From the sequence record NC_019767.1: a stretch of 40,155 bases of DNA. One strand, given 5' to 3'. Numbering within the stretch: position 1 is the first letter of the stretch; each line of letters begins with the position of its first letter. The notes under the pieces were generated by a model. The model saw nothing but the letters and a program-made list of their open reading frames with translations. It was not told the DNA's origin and did no database searches. This DNA is from Escherichia phage HK544. This document shows, piece after piece, positions 25,390 through 37,248 of the stretch. A program made the position numbers and the translations under genes.

Positions 25390-26358
25390 TTAGTAGGTTA
25401 TTTTTGTTGCGAATACTTCGCCTTTTACGATGGCTGTTATGATATTTTTAGCAACATCTTCTGATGCACCAACCTTGATAAGGTCAGCAAGTATTTTGTT
25501 ATTTACTTCTTTCCGGTGCGCTTTATCCTTTGCTCTACGCTCTTCTTCTTCCTTGATTCTTTTTTCTTCTGCTATTCTGGCTTGCTCTTTTGCTTCAGCA
25601 TCGCGACGGATTCGTTCAGCCTCCTCCTGTGCTTTTCTGCGTTCTGCTTCAATTGCTGCCTGCTTTTCTCTTTCAGCTCGTTCTGCTGCCTCTTTTGCTT
25701 CGCGCTGTGCTCGCTGCTCGGCTTCAATGCGTTCACGCTCTGCACGTTCCGCTGCGGCCTTAGCTTCTGCTTCTCGCCTTGCTGCTGCTTCAATTTCGGC
25801 TTTTGCCTTTGCTTCGGCTTCTGCTCTGGCTTTCTCTTCAGCTTCTCTTTTTAAGCGTTCTTCATGCTCTCGCTTTTCCTGCTCCGCTTTGAGTCTTGCC
25901 TCTTCTCTTTTGCGGTCAAATTCGCGATCCATCAAAATAGCTATTTCATGGTCAGACTCAATTTGCTTTGCGAGAGCTTCAGCTGCTGCCTTAGCTTCTT
26001 CTTCGGCTTTAATCCGCGCCTGTTCTTCCTCATAATCAGTAAGAGGCTGGCGCGCCTTGGCTTTCAGTTCATCAAGGCGATCACGCACTGTCTTGCGGTT
26101 GGCATCAATTAGCTTTGGAATTTCCTTCAGTTCAGCAACAAGGTCTTTGCCAAGACCATCGAGATATGTTTTCGTCTGCGCAACTTTATACGCCAGAGAA
26201 GCGATCTCCTTTCTGCCCTTTGCCGTTGTGATATCAGGCACAAAGGACATAACTTCACGTTCAACCTTTTGAAGGATTTCTTCAATCTGGTCTGCAGACT
26301 GAAATACAGTCATTGCATTTGCTTTTTCAATAACAACTAAATCTGTTACTTCACTCAT
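25390..26358 (-). CDS. coiled-coil protein with long low-complexity Ala/Glu/Lys/Arg repeat region
   Basis: 322 aa from MSEVTDLV (SD GGAGGA); central roughly 150 aa is (A/E/K/R)-rich repetitive coiled-coil; function unknown. Confidence 0.5.
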   Translation of the reverse strand: MSEVTDLVVIEKANAMTVFQSADQIEEILQKVEREVMSFVPDITTAKGRKEIASLAYKVAQTKTYLDGLGKDLVAELKEIPKLIDANRKTVRDRLDELKAKARQPLTDYEEEQARIKAEEEAKAAAEALAKQIESDHEIAILMDREFDRKREEARLKAEQEKREHEERLKREAEEKARAEAEAKAKAEIEAAARREAEAKAAAERAERERIEAEQRAQREAKEAAERAEREKQAAIEAERRKAQEEAERIRRDAEAKEQARIAEEKRIKEEEERRAKDKAHRKEVNNKILADLIKVGASEDVAKNIITAIVKGEVFATKITY

Positions 26359-26370
26359 ATATCCTCCGTC

Positions 26371-26398
26371 AAAAAAAACTGCCCTCACACTGGAGGGC
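26371..26398 (-). terminator. intrinsic terminator in the leftward operon (tL-like)
   Basis: On the - strand: GCCCTCCAGTGTGAGGGC hairpin followed by TTTTTTTT, directly upstream of the coiled-coil gene SD. Confidence 0.45.
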
Positions 26399-26534
26399 AA
26401 AGAAGATTTCCAATAATCAGAACAAGTCGGCTCCTGTTTAGTTACGAGCGACATTGCTCCGTGTATTCACTCGTTGGAATGAATACACAGTGCAGTGTTT
26501 ATTCTGTTGTTTATGCCAAAAATGAAGGCCACCA

Positions 26535-26735
26535 TCAGGCAGCCTTGTTGTTCTGTTTACCAAGTTCTCTGGCAATCATTGCCGTCGTTCGTATTGCCCA
26601 TTTATCGACATATTTCCCATCTTCCATTACAGGAAACATTTCTTCAGGCTTAACCATGCATTCCGATTGCAGCTTGCATCCATTGCATCGTTTGAATTGT
26701 CCACACCATTGATTTTTATCAATAGTCGTAGTCAT
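26535..26735 (-). CDS. ral: restriction alleviation protein Ral
   Basis: 66 aa, MTTTIDKNQWCGQFKRCNGCKLQSEC...; matches lambda Ral as I recall it; position just downstream of N. Confidence 0.65.
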   Translation of the reverse strand: MTTTIDKNQWCGQFKRCNGCKLQSECMVKPEEMFPVMEDGKYVDKWAIRTTAMIARELGKQNNKAA

Positions 26736-26813
26736 ACGGATAGTCCTGGTATTGTTCCATCACATCCTGAGGATGCTCTTCGAACTCTTCAAATTCTTCT
26801 TCCATATATCACC

Positions 26814-27140
26814 TCAAATAAGTGGTTTGCTGCCTAATTTCATTTTCTGGCGACCAACACAAGTCACACCCATTTCACTGCGTGGCTTGCTGTACCATGT
26901 GCGCTGATTCTTGCGCTCAATACGCTGCAGGTTGCTTTCAATCTGTTCGTGGTATTCAGCCAGCACCGTAAGGTCTATCGGATTCAGTGCGCTTTCTACT
27001 CGTGATTTCGGTTTGCGATTCAGCGAGAGAATAGGGCGGTTAACTGGCTTTGCGCTTACCCCAACCAACAGGGGATTTGCTGCTTTCCATTGAGCCTGTT
27101 TCTCTGCGCGACGTTCGCGGCGGCGTGTTTGTGCATCCAT
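26814..27140 (-). CDS. N: antitermination protein N
   Basis: 108 aa, MDAQTRRRERRAEKQAQWKAANPLL... Arg-rich motif; near-identical to lambda N as recalled. Confidence 0.9.
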   Translation of the reverse strand: MDAQTRRRERRAEKQAQWKAANPLLVGVSAKPVNRPILSLNRKPKSRVESALNPIDLTVLAEYHEQIESNLQRIERKNQRTWYSKPRSEMGVTCVGRQKMKLGSKPLI

Positions 27141-27408
27141 CTGGATTCTCCTGTCAGTTAGCTTTGGTGGTGTGGTGGCTGGTAGTCTAGCTCCAGCTTG
27201 TTGAGTCTCATTCGGAGGGGTATAACCGGCACCCCAGCGATTTTTCCATGCGACAACGTGCGCGTTATGGCGGCCTTATCGCCCGCGGCTCCCCATCTCG
27301 TCCACGCTATTGCTAGCGTTGGGAGCGCTTCACCGCTCAACAGTAGGTAAGCACTTGCCAGTGACTAGCTGGCTTCACCACACCCCAAAGCCTTCTGCTT
27401 TGAATGCT

Positions 27409-27438
27409 GCCCTTCTTCAGGGCTAAATTTTTAAGAGC
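27409..27438 (-). promoter_or_regulatory. nutL (boxA plus boxB)
   Basis: On the - strand: GCTCTTAAAAATTTA followed by GCCCTGAAGAAGGGC (boxB hairpin), between pL and N. Confidence 0.75.
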
Positions 27439-27479
27439 CTCACCTTCAATGGTGGTTAGTGCGTCCTGCTGATGTGCTC

Positions 27480-27543
27480 AGTATCACCGCCAGTGGTATT
27501 TATGTCAACACCGCCAGAGATAATTTATCACCGCAGATGGTTA
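27480..27543 (-). promoter_or_regulatory. pL promoter with operators OL1-OL3
   Basis: 17-bp operator-like sites TATCACCGCCAGTGGTA, CAACACCGCCAGAGATA and TATCACCGCAGATGGTTA; -35 TTGACA and -10 GATACT on the - strand. Confidence 0.8.
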
Positions 27544-27690
27544 TCTGTATGTTTTTTATATGAATTTATTTTTTGCAGGGGGGCATTGTTTGGTAGGTGA
27601 GAGATCTGAATTGCTATGTTTAGTGAGTTGTATCTATTAATTTTTCAATAAATACAATTGGTTATGTGTTTTGGGGGCGATCGTGAGGCA

Positions 27691-27714
27691 AAGAAAACCC
27701 GGCTCTGTGGCCGG
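27691..27714 (-). terminator. immunity-region terminator (tImm-like) ending the cI operon
   Basis: On the - strand: CCGGC-CACAGA-GCCGG hairpin followed by GTTTTCTT, 11 nt downstream of the 183-aa gene stop. Confidence 0.5.
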
Positions 27715-27724
27715 ATTTGCTAAA

Positions 27725-28276
27725 TTACTGACCTTTCTTAAGGTACAAGTTTATTAGGAAAAATATAGTTGGCATAGCAAGCGAGGCCAGGAGAACCCCG
27801 AGCATCCATACTTTTACATCTGCTATCTTGGTTTCCAAAGCGGAAAATTTAGCTTCAAAGTAGTCAACCGATGGTTTCTTAGATAATGAAGCATCAAAAT
27901 CCAGGCTCTTCTGTAAAAGTACAGCGGTGTCTCTTTTGGCGTCAGTAGAATCAGAAGATATTTTCCGGGTATCCTCTTTAATTCCTGCCATGCTGCTCTT
28001 GATGTGCGCAACTTCAGCTTCAAGAACTGCTAATCGCTTATCCATGTCGTCGCCTCCATCATCACTTGTTGTTTGAATGATCTCAGTATCATCCATCACA
28101 ACCGATGTGACAATCCGTTTTTCTTTATCTGAAGCAGCAACAGAACAAGCTTTCATCAAGAGCGTTGCTTGGCTTGATGCTACAGAAGAAAATTCCAGCC
28201 CTACTGTAGAGCCATTCTTATCAGAGTAAGCAATTACTAGCTTTCCCTCATCCAAAGATGATTGAGCTGCATTCAT
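27725..28276 (-). CDS. novel tail-anchored membrane protein in the rexB position (coiled-coil plus C-terminal TM helix)
   Basis: 183 aa; ATG 6 nt after upstream gene stop; central coiled-coil (KRLAVLEAEVAHIKSSMAGIKEDTRK); C-terminal hydrophobic helix VWMLGVLLASLAMPTIFFLINLYL then KKGQ; not RexB-like in size or topology. Confidence 0.55.
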   Translation of the reverse strand: MNAAQSSLDEGKLVIAYSDKNGSTVGLEFSSVASSQATLLMKACSVAASDKEKRIVTSVVMDDTEIIQTTSDDGGDDMDKRLAVLEAEVAHIKSSMAGIKEDTRKISSDSTDAKRDTAVLLQKSLDFDASLSKKPSVDYFEAKFSALETKIADVKVWMLGVLLASLAMPTIFFLINLYLKKGQ

Positions 28277-28282
28277 CAGCTT

Positions 28283-28564
28283 TTATTCCTCGAACATGCT
28301 TTTCAAGGACTGATAGAAATCGAAGGCCTTCTGTTTACTTAAAGTCACGGACGCAACCTTAGTGCGCTGCATTCCTGCCACTGCGATTTCGCCATTCATA
28401 TGGCCGATGACAGGGGTGCTATTGAGAAAAACGAAGTTAAAAACTTCGTAGCCATTGTTATCCGTTCCGATGGTTACAACCCCATCAGCATTAGTTTCAA
28501 TATAATTTTTGGACTCCAGCACATCATTGATATGTGCTAAGGAAACTTCTTGTTTATCGCTCAC
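28283..28564 (-). CDS. novel small soluble protein in the rexA position
   Basis: 93 aa; GTG start with SD GGAGAA 122 nt downstream of cI; motif GVVTIGTDNNGYEV resembles KLVIAYSDKNGSTV at the N-terminus of the downstream gene. Confidence 0.5.
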   Translation of the reverse strand: MSDKQEVSLAHINDVLESKNYIETNADGVVTIGTDNNGYEVFNFVFLNSTPVIGHMNGEIAVAGMQRTKVASVTLSKQKAFDFYQSLKSMFEE

Positions 28565-28686
28565 TTATGTTCTCCTGAACCAACAAAATAGGTAAAAATC
28601 TTTTCAATTTCATTAGATTAATTTGCATAAAAAGAACAGGGAAAAGTTGGATTACCAGCTATGCGCCGACCAGAACACCTTGCCGA

Positions 28687-29403
<717 letters not shown>

Positions 29404-29410
29404 TTAAATC

Positions 29411-29474
29411 TATCACCGCAAGGGATAAATATCTAACACCGTGCGTGTTGACTATTTTACCTCTGGCGGTGATA
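29411..29474. promoter_or_regulatory. OR3-OR2-OR1 operators with divergent pRM and pR
   Basis: TATCACCGCAAGGGATA (OR3, 29411-29427), TAACACCGTGCGTGTTG (OR2, 29434-29450), TACCTCTGGCGGTGATA (OR1, 29458-29474); pR -35 TTGACT and -10 GATAAT. Confidence 0.85.
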
Positions 29475-29491
29475 ATGGTTGCATGTACTAA

Positions 29492-29701
<210 letters not shown>

Positions 29702-29708
29702 ATAACCC

Positions 29709-29740
29709 CGCTCTTACACATTCCAGCCCTGAAAAAGGGC
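29709..29740 (+). promoter_or_regulatory. nutR (boxA CGCTCTTAC plus boxB GCCCTGAAAAAGGGC)
   Basis: Canonical boxA at 29709-29717 and boxB hairpin at 29726-29740 immediately downstream of cro. Confidence 0.8.
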
Positions 29741-29819
29741 ATCAAATTAAACCACACCTATGGTGTATGCATTTATTTGCATACATTCAATCAATTGTTA
29801 TCTAAGGAAATACTTACAT

Positions 29820-30098
29820 ATGCAACTTACAAGTACTCGCAAGAAAGCGAATGCAATTACAAGCAACATCCTGAATCGAATTGCTGTACGTGGTCAGCGA
29901 AAGGTTGCCGACGCGTTAGGGATTAATGAATCGCAAATTTCTCGATGGAAAGATAGCTTCATCCCAAAAATGGGAATGCTTCTGGCTGTTCTTGAATGGG
30001 GTGTTGAAGACGAGGAGTTGGCAGAACCGGCTAAGAAAGTAGCCAGAATGCTGACAAAAGAAAAAGCCCCGAAGAACGGCGAATTCTTCGAGGCCTGA
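29820..30098 (+). CDS. cII: CII-like transcriptional activator (non-lambda allele)
   Basis: 92 aa from ATG 29820 (SD TAAGGAAA); HTH region SQISRWK...MLLAVLEWGV resembles lambda cII, but N- and C-terminal sequences differ. Confidence 0.7.
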   Translation: MQLTSTRKKANAITSNILNRIAVRGQRKVADALGINESQISRWKDSFIPKMGMLLAVLEWGVEDEELAEPAKKVARMLTKEKAPKNGEFFEA

Positions 30099-30132
30099 TG
30101 TAGAAAGACTGGATCAATCCACAGGAGTAATT

Positions 30133-30294
30133 ATGACAAAACGTCGTAAGAAATACCAGGAAAAAGAAGAGATTCGACACCCTGATTCACCTGAGGGATT
30201 AGTGGTAGCCGCAGCAAATAACAGGGCGTTCGCAGAGCGCCTTGTTGGTGTTTACAGACTAGCCAAAGCAGGAGTGAAACATGGGCGTCGTTAA
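30133..30294 (+). CDS. small basic ORF (53 aa) between cII and the replication gene
   Basis: ATG 30133 with SD CAGGAG; Lys/Arg-rich N-terminus; 3' end overlaps the O-like gene start; below ORF-track cutoff. Confidence 0.3.
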   Translation: MTKRRKKYQEKEEIRHPDSPEGLVVAAANNRAFAERLVGVYRLAKAGVKHGRR

Positions 30295-35228: not shown

Positions 35229-35871
35229 TGGCAGCAAATACCGAAATATTTGGGTAGTTGGCGATCTGCACGGATGCTACACGAACCTGATGAAAAAACT
35301 GGAGACGATAGGATTCGACACCAAAAAAGACCTGCTTATCTCGGTTGGCGATTTGGTCGATCGCGGTACAGAGAACGTCGAATGCCTGGAATTAATCACA
35401 TTCCCCTGGTTCAGAGCTGTACGTGGAAACCATGAGCAAATGATGATTGATGGCTTATCAGAGCGCGGAAACGTCAATCACTGGATGCTTAATGGCGGTG
35501 GCTGGTTCTTTAATCTCGATTACGACAAAGAAATTCTGGCTAAAGCTCTTGCCCATAAAGCAGATGAACTTCCGTTAATCATCGAACTGGTGAGCAAAGA
35601 TAAAAAATATGTCATCTGCCACGCCGATTATCCTTGTGACGAATACGAGTTTGGAAAGCCAGTTGATCATCAGCAGGTAATCTGGAACCGCGAACGAATC
35701 AGCAACTCACAAGACGGGATCGTGAAAGAAATCAAAGGCGCGGACACGTTCATCTTTGGTCATACGCCAGCAGTGAAACCACTCAAGTTTGCCAACCAGA
35801 TGTATATCGATACCGGCGCAGTGTTCTGCGGAAACCTCACATTGATTCAAGTACAGGGAGAAGGCGCATGA
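35206..35871 (+). CDS. ninI: Ser/Thr protein phosphatase NinI (lambda PPase)
   Basis: 221 aa from MRYYEKIDG; metallophosphatase motifs GDLHG, GDLVDRG, GNHE. Confidence 0.9.
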
Positions 35872-36491
35872 GACTCGAAAGCGTGGCTAAATTTCATTCG
35901 CCAAAAAGCCCGATGATGAGTGACTCACCACGGGCCACGGCTTCTGACTCTCTTTCTGGTACTGATGTGATGGCTGCTATGGGGATGGCGCAATCACAAG
36001 CCGGATTCGGAATGGCTGCATTCTGCGGTAAGCACGAACTCAGCCAGAACGACAAACAAAAGGCTATCAACTATCTGATGCAATTTGCACACAAGGTATC
36101 GGGGAAATACCGTGGTGTGGCAAAGCTTGAAGGAAATACTAAGGCAAAGGTACTGCAAGTGCTTGCAACATTCGCTTATGCGGATTATTGCCGTAGTGCC
36201 GCGACGCCGGGCGCAAGATGCAGAGATTGTCACGGTACAGGCCGTGCGGTTGATATAGCAAAAACAGAGCAGTGGGGGAGAGTTGTTGAGAAAGAATGCG
36301 GAAGATGCAAAGGCGTCGGCTATTCAAGGATGCCAGCAAGCGCCGCATATCGCGCTGTAACGATGCTAATCCCAAATCTTACTCAACCCACCTGGTCACG
36401 CACTGTTAAGCCGCTGTATGACGCTCTGGTGGTGCAATGCCACAAAGAAGAGTCAATCGCAGACAACATTTTGAATGCGGTCACACGTTAG
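35868..36491 (+). CDS. Q: late antiterminator Q
   Basis: 207 aa, [34 protein letters not shown]...; matches lambda Q as recalled; ATGA overlap with ninI. Confidence 0.95.
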
Positions 36492-36534
36492 CAGCATGAT
36501 TGCCACGGATGGCAACATATTAACGGCATGATAT

Positions 36535-36626
36535 TGACTTTTTGAATAAAGTTGGGTAAATTTGACTCAACGATGGATAAATGCACTCGTTAAATAAAGC
36601 CCTGAGTTAATAGCTCGGGGCTTTTT
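36535..36626 (+). promoter_or_regulatory. late promoter pR' with qut region and tR'-like terminator
   Basis: -35 TTGACT (36535-36540), 17-bp spacer, -10 TAAATT (36557-36562); hairpin GCCCTGAG-TTAATAG-CTCGGGGC followed by TTTTT (36599-36626). Confidence 0.7.
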
Positions 36627-36924
36627 GCGTTTTAAGCACGGCCTTTCTGAAAGCACATCAAACCAAATACCAGACAGACCAAAATAATCACCTTATCCGC
36701 TGTGGCTACGGTGCGGTGTGCTTTGCATAAAAGAAAACCAGCTCAATGGCTGGCTTCGTGAAATCGGGTGGCAGGAGGTTGCGCTAACAACCTCATGCCG
36801 TTTTGCCCGTGCATATCGGTCACGAACAAATCTGATTACTAAACACAGTAGCCTGGATTTGTTCTATCAGTAATCGACCTTATTCCTAATTAAATAGAGC
36901 AAATCCCCTTATTGGGGGTAAGAC

Positions 36925-37248
36925 ATGAAGATGCCAGAAAAACATGACCTGTTAGCCGCCATTCTCGCGGCAAAGGAACAAGGCATCGGGGCAATCCTTG
37001 CGTTTGCAATGGCGTACCTTCGCGGCAGATATAATGGCGGTGCGTTTACAAAAACAGTAATCGACGCAACGATGTGCGCCATTATCGCCTGGTTCATTCG
37101 TGACCTTCTCGACTTCGCCGGACTAAGTAGCAATCTCGCTTATATAACGAGCGTGTTCATCGGCTACATCGGTACTGACTCGATTGGTTCGCTTATCAAA
37201 CGCTTCGCTGCTAAAAAAGCCGGAGTAGAAGATGGTGGAAATCAATAA
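36925..37248 (+). CDS. S: holin S (dual-start S107/S105)
   Basis: 107 aa, [32 protein letters not shown]...; Met1-Lys2-Met3 dual-start motif; matches lambda S as recalled. Confidence 0.95.

What the first reader, a model, noticed from the sequence alone, without database searches (positions are those of the whole stretch)
27691..28686. rexA/rexB position occupied by an unrelated two-gene cassette co-transcribed with cI
Both flanks match lambda as I recall it (cI upstream; terminator, OL/pL, nutL and N downstream), but in the slot where lambda carries rexA (279 aa) and rexB (144 aa, polytopic) there are two different genes. The first is a 93-aa soluble protein with a GTG start and GGAGAA SD. 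The second starts 6 nt after its stop and is a 183-aa protein with a central coiled-coil and a single C-terminal hydrophobic helix (VWMLGVLLASLAMPTIFFLINLYL-KKGQ), i.e. tail-anchored topology. The N-terminus of the second (GKLVIAYSDKNGSTVGLEF) weakly resembles the core of the first (GVVTIGTDNNGYEVFNF), suggesting a shared small domain. This locus is transcribed from pRM in lysogens and is the classic site of prophage-encoded exclusion, so a soluble sensor plus membrane effector defence module is a reasonable hypothesis.
Basis: partly seen in the sequence, partly recalled or inferred. Interest (0 to 1): 0.88.

Follow-up and report, generated by a model that had tools for sequence, protein, structure and literature searches.

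The report
Unknown two-gene cassette replacing rexAB
In this lambda-immunity phage (HK544) the classic rexA-rexB exclusion genes are replaced by two uncharacterised genes, a small soluble protein and a tail-anchored membrane protein, which sit directly behind a prophage repressor gene in 22 of 26 distinct loci examined and are probably a phage-exclusion module; the cassette was already annotated in 2007 and no function has been tested.

Summary
The window is phage HK544. A 934-bp segment (27718-28651) replaces lambda rexA-rexB exactly between 35 nt after the cI stop and the Timm terminator. It encodes orf93 (soluble) and orf183 (N-domain, linker, coiled coil, one C-terminal TM helix).

The cassette is not new as an object. 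It is HK544c104/c103 (GenBank EF120455, Degnan 2007) and ECs2991/ECs2992 of the O157:H7 Stx1 prophage, annotated 'hypothetical'. I found no published function and no match in Pfam, NCBIfam, PADLOC or the PDB. The claimed shared domain between the two proteins is not supported.

New findings:
- The pair forms an Enterobacterales prophage family that almost always lies behind a lysogeny repressor: lambda cI, VT1 cI, Rac-type repressors, and P22 Mnt in the sieA slot.
- orf93 co-varies with the N-domain of orf183, while the coil-TM half is exchanged independently.
- The linker of orf183 carries a conserved sigma-70-like promoter (TTGTCA-17-GATACT), GGAGG and an invariant ATG. These predict a separately expressed 106-aa coil-TM isoform, reminiscent of lambda pLit/rexB.

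A membrane-acting exclusion or abortive-infection module is the best reading (about 0.45). It rests on position and architecture only.

The parts
28687..29400 (-). cI repressor (lambda immunity, 237 aa), first gene of the pRM operon
28565..28686 (-). cI-orf93 intergenic leader (122 nt). 28652-28686 is lambda-like and 28565-28651 is cassette-specific. The SD AGGAGA lies at 28576..28571. There is no terminator and no significant structure.
28283..28564 (-). orf93 (HK544c104 / ECs2991 / WP_001280993): 93-aa acidic soluble protein with a GTG start, predicted as a beta-meander plus a C-terminal helix. PHROG 12039.
27725..28276 (-). orf183 long isoform (HK544c103 / ECs2992 / H0053 / WP_000990548): N-domain, disordered linker, coiled coil, KKPS hinge and a C-terminal TM helix. 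PHROG 12602.
28127..28276 (-). Variable N-terminal domain of orf183 (about residues 1-50), which co-varies with orf93
28085..28113 (-). Predicted internal promoter within the linker codons: -35 TTGTCA (28113..28108), 17 nt, -10 GATACT (28090..28085). It is conserved across diverged lineages.
28043..28057 (-). Internal ribosome-binding site GGAGG (28057..28053), 7 nt, then the ATG of Met78 (28045..28043). These are the codons of the invariant DGGDxM motif.
27725..28045 (-). Predicted short isoform (106 aa: coiled coil plus TM only), in frame with orf183
   Evidence: gene callers start here in some genomes; inference
27884..28045 (-). Coiled-coil helix, residues 78-131
27743..27814 (-). C-terminal transmembrane helix (about residues 155-178), followed by KKGQ
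27690..27714 (-). Timm intrinsic terminator, shared with lambda and VT1-Sakai; ends the pRM/pRE transcripts
27718..28651 (.). Segment that replaces lambda 35827-37191 (rexA-rexB)

Best explanation
The interval is a lysogenic-conversion ('moron') cassette of two translationally coupled genes. It is inserted in place of rexA-rexB and transcribed with cI from pRM/pRE, ending at Timm.

Its most likely function is phage exclusion or abortive infection at the inner membrane. The proposed mechanism has four parts.
1. orf93 and the N-terminal domain of orf183 form an exchangeable cytoplasmic 'head' that senses or gates. This is inferred.
2. The coiled coil oligomerises the protein. This is inferred.
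3. The single C-terminal TM helix, in tail-anchored N-in topology, is the membrane-acting part. The architecture is shown; the activity is inferred.
4. An embedded promoter, RBS and ATG in the linker produce a 106-aa coil-TM isoform lacking the head. This isoform would co-assemble with the long form and set or restrain activity. This is predicted from sequence conservation and has not been shown.

The fourth point parallels lambda pLit, which sits inside rexA and expresses rexB alone. It also parallels the S107/S105 and SieB/Esc isoform pairs.

Real, expressed genes:
- dN/dS is 0.05-0.36.
- ECs2991 was detected in an O157 lysogen proteome (PMC3936929).

Position:
- In 22 of 26 distinct loci the gene immediately upstream is a prophage repressor of many unrelated types: lambda cI, VT1 cI, several S24 repressors, Rac-type HTH repressors and Mnt.
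- The slots correspond to lambda rexAB, the racR-downstream region (ydaG-ydaF-sieB in K-12 Rac, from my own knowledge), and the P22 sieA slot between gene 16 and mnt (plus my own knowledge).
- The cI-N slot is a published hotspot holding RexAB and BstA. Repressor-operon exclusion genes are also known in Pseudomonas phage Fc02.

Obligate pairing:
- All 63 loci with a coil-TM gene have an abutting upstream ORF (gap -40 to +16 nt). In 53 of them it belongs to the orf93 family. The others have unrelated small partners of 94-142 aa.

Modularity, typical of sensor/effector systems:
- orf93 divergence tracks N-domain divergence (Spearman 0.83, Mantel p 0.0005).
- It does not track the coil-TM half (-0.19, p 0.99).

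Internal expression signals:
- TTGTCA-17-GATACT is kept across lineages whose intervening 17 nt and amino acids differ. With the protein sequence held fixed, synonymous resampling reaches the observed promoter score in only 0.2-3.6% of trials in 10 of 16 genes.
- GGAGG, 7 nt, then an invariant ATG is the strongest anti-SD site of the whole ORF in 20 of 23 genes.
- Gene callers independently start at this ATG in some genomes.
Against: - There is no functional data of any kind, and no homology to any known defence protein (PADLOC, Pfam, NCBIfam, PDB).
- Position behind a repressor shows expression in lysogens, not defence. Other morons such as bor, lom and gtr are also expressed in lysogens.
- The correlation between orf93 and the N-domain can be explained by physical linkage alone.
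- The SD signal cannot be separated from conservation of the GG dipeptide (resampling p 0.06-0.67).
- The promoter is a consensus match (9 of 12), and the scan of this region found no more such matches than chance. Only its cross-lineage conservation argues for it.
- A single TM helix with 4 periplasmic residues is not an obvious channel.
- AlphaFold2 models are low-confidence (pLDDT 46-53), so no fold-based support exists.
Confidence: 0.45

Rival explanations
1. Superinfection exclusion by blocking genome entry (SieA, Imm or HK97 gp15 type) rather than abortive infection. The tail-anchored protein would sit in the inner membrane and interfere with the DNA-injection machinery or its host cofactors, with orf93 as an accessory factor.
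For: In a P22-like phage the pair occupies the sieA slot behind mnt. The protein is inner-membrane anchored. The family is expressed from repressor operons.
Against: Almost the whole protein, and all of orf93, is predicted to be cytoplasmic, with only about 4 residues beyond the TM helix. That leaves little to contact an incoming tail or tape-measure protein in the periplasm. A variable cytoplasmic head fits sensing better than a passive block.
Confidence: 0.15
2. A self-serving prophage module: a membrane toxin with a soluble antidote (addiction or stabilisation), or a regulator of the prophage's own lysis or induction timing. The architecture resembles XhlA or DUF2951 accessory lysis proteins, and the two isoforms would act like a holin and antiholin.
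For: The gene order is small soluble gene first, then membrane gene, tightly coupled. The coil plus C-terminal TM architecture gives weak sub-threshold hits to XhlA (0.058), DUF2951 (0.002) and SlyX (0.001). A dual-start arrangement is predicted. In Salmonella phage S107 a related pair lies outside the immunity region, next to tail genes.
Against: All Pfam scores are far below the curated cut-offs and look like generic coiled-coil similarity. The cassette is in the lysogenic operon, not the late or lysis operon. HK544 appears to carry ordinary late-region ORFs elsewhere in the window, though their products were not identified here. The cassette is optional among phages sharing the same immunity region.
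Confidence: 0.15
3. A host-physiology or virulence moron unrelated to phage defence. One example would be a stress- or envelope-related tail-anchored protein, analogous in architecture to E. coli ElaB, YqjD and YgaM.
For: The cassette is carried by the Stx1 prophage of O157:H7 and is conserved at 99% or more in 93 of 5426 complete E. coli genomes. The orf93 product was detected in cells grown in rumen fluid. The tail-anchored topology with a C-terminal dibasic end resembles ElaB and YqjD (my own knowledge).
Against: There is no sequence relationship to DUF883 or any host family. The family is confined to prophage immunity regions and shows the mosaic head and effector swapping that is typical of arms-race genes.
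Confidence: 0.2
4. The ORFs are annotation artefacts or decaying remnants with no function.
For: They are annotated only as 'hypothetical'. The 93-aa ORF is not even called in VT1-Sakai.
Against: Purifying selection acts on both. There are 20 or more diverged lineages with conserved synteny and reading frame. The protein was detected by mass spectrometry.
Confidence: 0.02

Closest known systems
Lambda RexA/RexB
   Same: Same slot, between cI and Timm, and the same operon (pRM/pRE). Both have two genes, a cytoplasmic protein followed by a membrane protein. Both have a promoter inside the upstream coding sequence that would express the membrane part alone: pLit in rexA, and the predicted TTGTCA-17-GATACT in orf183.
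   Different: There is no sequence similarity. The PADLOC RexA and RexB models hit lambda (9e-110 and 9e-61) but not this cassette. RexB has four TM helices, whereas orf183 has one C-terminal helix. Sizes are 93+183 aa against 279+144 aa. Here the internal start is in frame and truncates the same protein rather than expressing a separate gene.
P22/lambda SieB with its in-frame truncated product Esc (own knowledge: Ranade and Poteete 1993)
   Same: Both are prophage exclusion genes producing a full-length membrane protein plus an N-terminally truncated in-frame isoform from an internal start. Both lie in lambdoid early-left regions.
   Different: The sequences are unrelated. SieB is anchored by N-terminal and internal TM segments and is not in the repressor operon. 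The isoforms here are only predicted.
P22 SieA
   Same: In the P22-like phage UPF_BP1 the related pair occupies the sieA position between gene 16 and mnt. Both are inner-membrane proteins.
   Different: The sequences are unrelated. SieA is a single polytopic protein.
BstA (Salmonella BTP1 and relatives)
   Same: Both are encoded directly downstream of the prophage repressor and co-transcribed with it, and both are portable between prophages with different repressors.
   Different: BstA is a single soluble DNA-associated protein with an aba self-immunity DNA element. There is no similarity.
XhlA (PF10779), DUF2951 and SlyX-type short coiled-coil proteins
   Same: The architecture of the short isoform is the same: an N-terminal coiled coil followed by one C-terminal TM helix, about 70-100 aa, phage-encoded.
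   Different: Only sub-threshold scores were obtained (E 0.001-0.06, 14-20 bits against cut-offs of 27-35). Those families sit in lysis cassettes of Gram-positive phages.
Mycobacteriophage Sbash gp30/gp31 and similar two-gene prophage defences (own knowledge)
   Same: Both are prophage-expressed pairs of a cytoplasmic protein and a membrane protein, proposed to work like RexAB.
   Different: The proteins and hosts are unrelated. Sbash has an experimental phenotype and this cassette has none.

Membership tests
RexAB (lambda) | First protein homologous to RexA | tested here: not met
   PADLOC gives no hit for orf93 or orf183, while lambda RexA scores 9e-110 as a control
RexAB (lambda) | Second protein homologous to RexB, a polytopic 4-TM protein | tested here: not met
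   No PADLOC RexB hit (control 8.6e-61). orf183 has a single hydrophobic segment
RexAB (lambda) | Located between cI and Timm and transcribed from pRM/pRE | tested here: met
   Breakpoints and terminator. No intervening terminator. Transcription itself was not measured.
RexAB (lambda) | Excludes T4 rII and other phages by membrane depolarisation | not testable with these tools
   Needs plating and membrane-potential assays
SieB/Esc | Sequence homology to SieB | tested here: not met
   No SieB family in the Pfam, PHROG or NCBIfam hits. VT1-Sakai carries a separate sieB as well as the cassette.
SieB/Esc | In-frame internal start giving a truncated isoform | tested here: inconclusive
   GGAGG-7 nt-ATG is invariant and is the strongest SD in the ORF in 20 of 23 genes, but this is not separable from the GG protein motif. 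No protein data.
XhlA / DUF2951 (coil + C-terminal TM phage proteins) | Score above the Pfam gathering threshold | tested here: not met
   Best scores are 14-20 bits against cut-offs of 26.7-34.7, and only in some family members
PHROG 12039 / PHROG 12602 (uncharacterised phage protein families) | Full-length profile match | tested here: met
   6.7e-65 (1-93 of 93) and 6.8e-124 (1-183 of 183). Both families are of unknown function.
Known anti-phage defence systems (PADLOC-DB 2.0.0) | Any component model matched | tested here: not met
   No hits for either protein. Only coiled-coil noise to SMC-like models for one relative.
Tail-anchored inner-membrane proteins (topological class) | Single TM helix within about 30 residues of the C-terminus, no signal peptide, large N-terminal cytoplasmic part | tested here: met
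   Hydropathy maximum at 157-175 of 183, with no other hydrophobic segment. The actual topology is not testable here.
Type II toxin-antitoxin-like pair | Downstream product toxic and neutralised by the upstream product | not testable with these tools
   Only gene order and coupling are seen

The most novel reading that the evidence does not exclude
The cassette is the founding example of a widespread, unrecognised family of repressor-operon exclusion systems in Enterobacterales prophages. An exchangeable cytoplasmic head (orf93 plus the N-domain) would confer specificity. A tail-anchored coiled-coil effector would be made in two isoforms, the shorter from a promoter, RBS and start codon embedded in the linker codons of the longer. 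The isoform ratio would act as the trigger or self-immunity control.
Probability: 0.3. Interest if true: 0.75.

Novelty: new variant of a known kind. Interest (0 to 1): 0.55.

Why it matters
If it is a defence module, it would be a new protein family in the most studied immunity region in phage biology. It would also be a natural replacement of RexAB, whose mechanism is still unclear after 60 years. A comparison of the two could show what the slot requires: a membrane part, a cytoplasmic part, and separate expression of the membrane part.

The cassette is carried by the Stx1 prophage of E. coli O157:H7, so it could influence which phages, including other Stx phages, can superinfect EHEC.

The embedded promoter, RBS and start codon are also a clean example of nucleotide-level signals that look like conserved amino acids in a disordered linker. 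That has consequences for gene calling, since several pipelines truncate the gene to 93-143 aa.

Tried and rejected
Searches and models that gave nothing useful:
- Pfam, NCBIfam and PADLOC on both proteins and on relatives gave nothing above threshold.
- PDB sequence-profile searches gave only coiled-coil noise for orf183 and nothing for orf93.
- An exhaustive profile search of 1.84 billion representatives with orf93 found only 20 hits. The long multi-stretch hits were fn3, FG-GAP and other beta-rich repeat proteins, judged compositional.
- AlphaFold2 on orf93 alone gave pLDDT 46.5. A linker-fused orf93-orf183 with a paired alignment gave pLDDT 53.3. Both are too poor for fold assignment or for reading an interface.
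- Rfam found no RNA family in 26500-30200.

Hypotheses tested and rejected or left open:
- The shared domain between orf93 and the orf183 N-terminus is rejected.
- Synonymous resampling of the internal SD cannot distinguish an RBS from the GG protein motif.

Literature:
- I searched for HK544, ECs2991, ECs2992, H0053, the UniProt and WP accessions, rexAB and hotspot terms, and tail-anchored and exclusion terms. I also searched the DefensePredictor supplements. No functional study was found.
- Degnan 2007 and Brenes and Laub 2025 are not held in the library. A description there cannot be excluded.
Full report
**Identity of the window.**
The 1.1 kb around the finding is 100% identical to the immunity-region record of Escherichia phage HK544 (EF120455.1). 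It is 99.5% identical over 92% of its length to the Stx1 prophages VT1-Sakai and phiSTEC801. The window itself is a 40,155-bp IMG/VR contig (L035). The HK544 record annotates pRM, OR1-3, cI, two 'conserved hypothetical proteins' (HK544c104 and c103, 'similar to ECs2991/ECs2992'), Timm, OL1-3, pL, nutL and N. The object was therefore described at this locus in 2007, without a function.

**Check of the observation.**
- The ORFs are as stated: cI 29400..28687; orf93 28564..28283 (GTG start, AGGAGA 6 nt upstream); orf183 28276..27725 (ATG 6 nt after the orf93 stop, GAGGA within the end of orf93).
- Alignment to lambda J02459 puts the right junction 35 nt after the cI stop (window 28652 = lambda 37192). 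The left junction is 7 nt after the orf183 stop (window 27717 = lambda 35826, inside the rexB stop codon). So 934 bp replace the 1365 bp of rexA-rexB.
- VT1-Sakai has a different cI and different operators, yet it shares window 27679-28713 at 99.1%. The shared block runs from the last 27 nt of cI to the terminator, so it moves as a mosaic unit between immunity types.
- The 122-nt cI-orf93 spacer has no terminator and no significant structure (z = 0.61). A hairpin with a U-tract (-14.8 kcal/mol) begins about 8 nt after the orf183 stop.
- orf183 has one hydrophobic segment (residues 157-175) followed by KKGQ. orf93 has none.
- A 3-4 hydrophobic repeat starts at Met78. AlphaFold2 places helices at 78-131, 137-151 and 156-182, with a low-confidence linker at about 46-77.
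- The suggested resemblance between the orf183 N-terminus and the orf93 core is not supported by BLASTP or by profile-profile comparison (probability 0.1%).

**Are the genes real?**
- Both are under purifying selection against diverged homologues: dN/dS is 0.05-0.11 for orf93 and 0.15-0.36 for orf183, with dS saturated.
- The orf93 orthologue ECs2991 (Q8X2Z1, 10 kDa) was detected by LC-MS/MS in O157:H7 cells (PMC3936929). That is direct evidence of expression in a lysogen.

**What is known about them?**
- Nothing functional was found. Pfam, NCBIfam, PADLOC and PDB sequence searches are negative. PADLOC recovers lambda RexA and RexB as controls.
- PHROGs places them in families 12039 and 12602, both of unknown function.
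- All database names are 'hypothetical', 'membrane protein' or 'SlyX-like coiled coil'.
- Literature searches found only the proteome listing.
- Published work does establish that the cI-N interval is a mosaic hotspot for accessory and defence genes such as rexAB and bstA.

**Distribution and context.**
- The HK544/Sp15 allele is in 93 of 5426 complete E. coli genomes, mostly O157:H7. A Rac-prophage allele is in 13 more.
- The orf93 family is small even in an exhaustive search: 20 representatives, extending to about 31% identity. The orf183 family has more than 170 clusters, all in Enterobacterales.
- Synteny is strikingly constant: repressor, then a small soluble gene, then the coil-TM gene, then pL/N or kilR.
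- Of 26 distinct loci, 22 have a repressor directly upstream. The repressors are of many unrelated kinds: lambda cI, several S24/LexA-type alleles, Rac-type 129-155-aa HTH repressors paired with YdaS/YdaT, and Mnt.
- In the P22-like phage UPF_BP1 the pair lies between gene 16 and mnt. From my own knowledge this is the sieA position.
- In Rac-like prophages the pair lies between the repressor and kilR. K-12 Rac has ydaG-ydaF-sieB there (plus my own knowledge).
- Every one of 63 loci with a coil-TM gene has an abutting upstream ORF. In 53 it is an orf93 homologue. The rest have unrelated partners of 94-142 aa, paired with shorter coil-TM proteins of 125-149 aa.

**Modularity.**
- The orf183 family has several unrelated N-domain types, an invariant DGGD[DN]M-x-R-L-A-x-L-E-x-x-V-x-H-I-K core, and at least three C-terminal coil/TM types.
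- Across 19 distinct pairs, orf93 identity tracks N-domain identity (Spearman 0.83, Mantel p = 0.0005). It does not track the coil-TM half (-0.19).
- Examples include identical orf93 plus N-domain joined to coil-TM halves that are only 37% identical.
- The recombination boundary therefore lies inside orf183, at the conserved core.

**Embedded expression signals (new here).**
- The invariant GG...M is encoded as GGAGG (or GGGGG), 7 nt, then ATG (window 28057..28043). This is the strongest anti-Shine-Dalgarno pairing site of the whole ORF in 20 of 23 distinct genes, at -8.4 to -12.2 kcal/mol.
- Thirty to thirty-nine nucleotides upstream, still within the linker codons, lies TTGTCA-17 nt-GATACT (28113..28085). 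The -10 hexamer is the same as that of lambda pL in this window.
- Both hexamers and the 17-nt spacing recur in lineages whose intervening nucleotides and amino acids differ. Variants are TTGCCA, TTGTAA and TTGTTA for the -35, and GATAAT and CATACT for the -10.
- With the protein sequence held fixed and codons redrawn from the family's own usage, the observed promoter score is reached in only 0.2-3.6% of resamples in 10 of 16 genes.
- The Thr codon supplying the final T of the -10 is ACT in 13 of the 16 resampled genes (the other three have L010 TATCTT, L036 TGTCGT and L055 GATAAT), although ACT is 33% of Thr codons in these genes.
- The same test cannot separate the SD from the GG motif (p 0.06-0.67).
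- Some gene callers start the gene at this ATG (93-aa calls in L010 and L066), although the upstream frame stays open with an intact N-domain.
- The frame is continuous in all lineages, so the long form is also maintained.
- The prediction is two products: 183 aa from the pRM message, and 106 aa (coil plus TM) from the internal start and promoter. This is inference. No transcript or protein mapping was available.

**Mechanistic reading.**
- Shown: lysogen-operon placement, a soluble protein plus a tail-anchored protein, obligate pairing, head/effector modularity, and conserved internal signals.
- Inferred: orf93 binds the N-domain to form a cytoplasmic sensing or gating head. The coiled coil oligomerises and the TM helices act on the membrane. 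The headless isoform co-assembles and tunes activity.
- Parallels (from my own knowledge) are excess RexB from pLit, the S107/S105 holin pair, and Esc against SieB.
- I rate exclusion or abortive infection at about 0.45, an entry block at about 0.15, a self-serving toxin-antidote or lysis regulator at about 0.15, and a non-defence host-physiology moron at about 0.2.

**Novelty and score.**
- The cassette and its position are already on record, and the slot is a known hotspot, so the bare observation is not new.
- The proteins belong to no characterised family. The family-wide repressor linkage across three classical exclusion slots, the internal module boundary, and the embedded promoter/RBS/start appear undescribed in the literature I could search.
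- I classify it as a new variant of a known kind (a repressor-operon two-gene membrane module). Interest is 0.55. It is a good, cheap experimental target, but its defence role rests on guilt by position.

Noticed in passing
L054:2971-3525, L066 and L067 (about 2207-2782): The linker of Serratia-type orf183 homologues contains an (ACA)n trinucleotide repeat encoding 4, 5 or 13 threonines. It lies between the conserved -10-like GATAAT and the internal GGAGG-ATG. It is length-polymorphic between otherwise near-identical loci and would change the promoter-to-start distance.
   Followed up: partly
L065:1758-2795 (phage mEp332, EF120456): Another lambda-immunity phage carries a single unrelated 345-aa gene in the same cI-Timm slot. 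It has no Pfam or PADLOC hit and is another uncharacterised occupant of the hotspot.
   Followed up: partly
L064:2560-3297 (Salmonella phage UPF_BP1): A related pair (94 aa plus a 149-aa coil-TM protein) lies downstream of mnt in the immI region, between mnt and gene 16, where P22 has sieA. The 94-aa partner is not detectably homologous to orf93, although its N-terminus looks similar (ES.N....AD).
   Followed up: partly
L063:2550-3294 (Salmonella phage S107): A coil-TM family member (orf26, 125 aa) is paired with a 124-aa CxxC...CxxC zinc-ribbon-like protein. The pair lies between Rha genes and the tail genes, so it is outside an immunity region. This is an exception to the repressor linkage.
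   Followed up: no
L046:2315-2506 and L055:2442-2627: In two lineages an extra 61-63-aa ORF with hydrophobic, TM-like sequence lies between the repressor and the cassette.
   Followed up: no
L002:4598-4879 (VT1-Sakai, AP000400): The 93-aa gene is not annotated in the VT1-Sakai record, which calls only H0053. Various pipelines truncate orf183 homologues to 93, 96, 123 or 143 aa. These are annotation inconsistencies that hide the pair.
   Followed up: yes
window 25390-26454 (- strand): A 354-aa ORF in the pL operon has a long, highly charged E/A/K/R-rich repetitive central region. It has no Pfam hit.
   Followed up: partly
window 27409-27423: The terminator scan flags a hairpin (GCCCTTCTTCAGGGC) on the + strand. 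It is the nutL boxB stem-loop annotated in HK544, not a terminator.
   Followed up: yes
window 26500-27200: HK544 has no sieB between ral and N. mEp332 and VT1-Sakai do have sieB there, and VT1-Sakai carries both sieB and the cassette, so the two are not mutually exclusive.
   Followed up: partly
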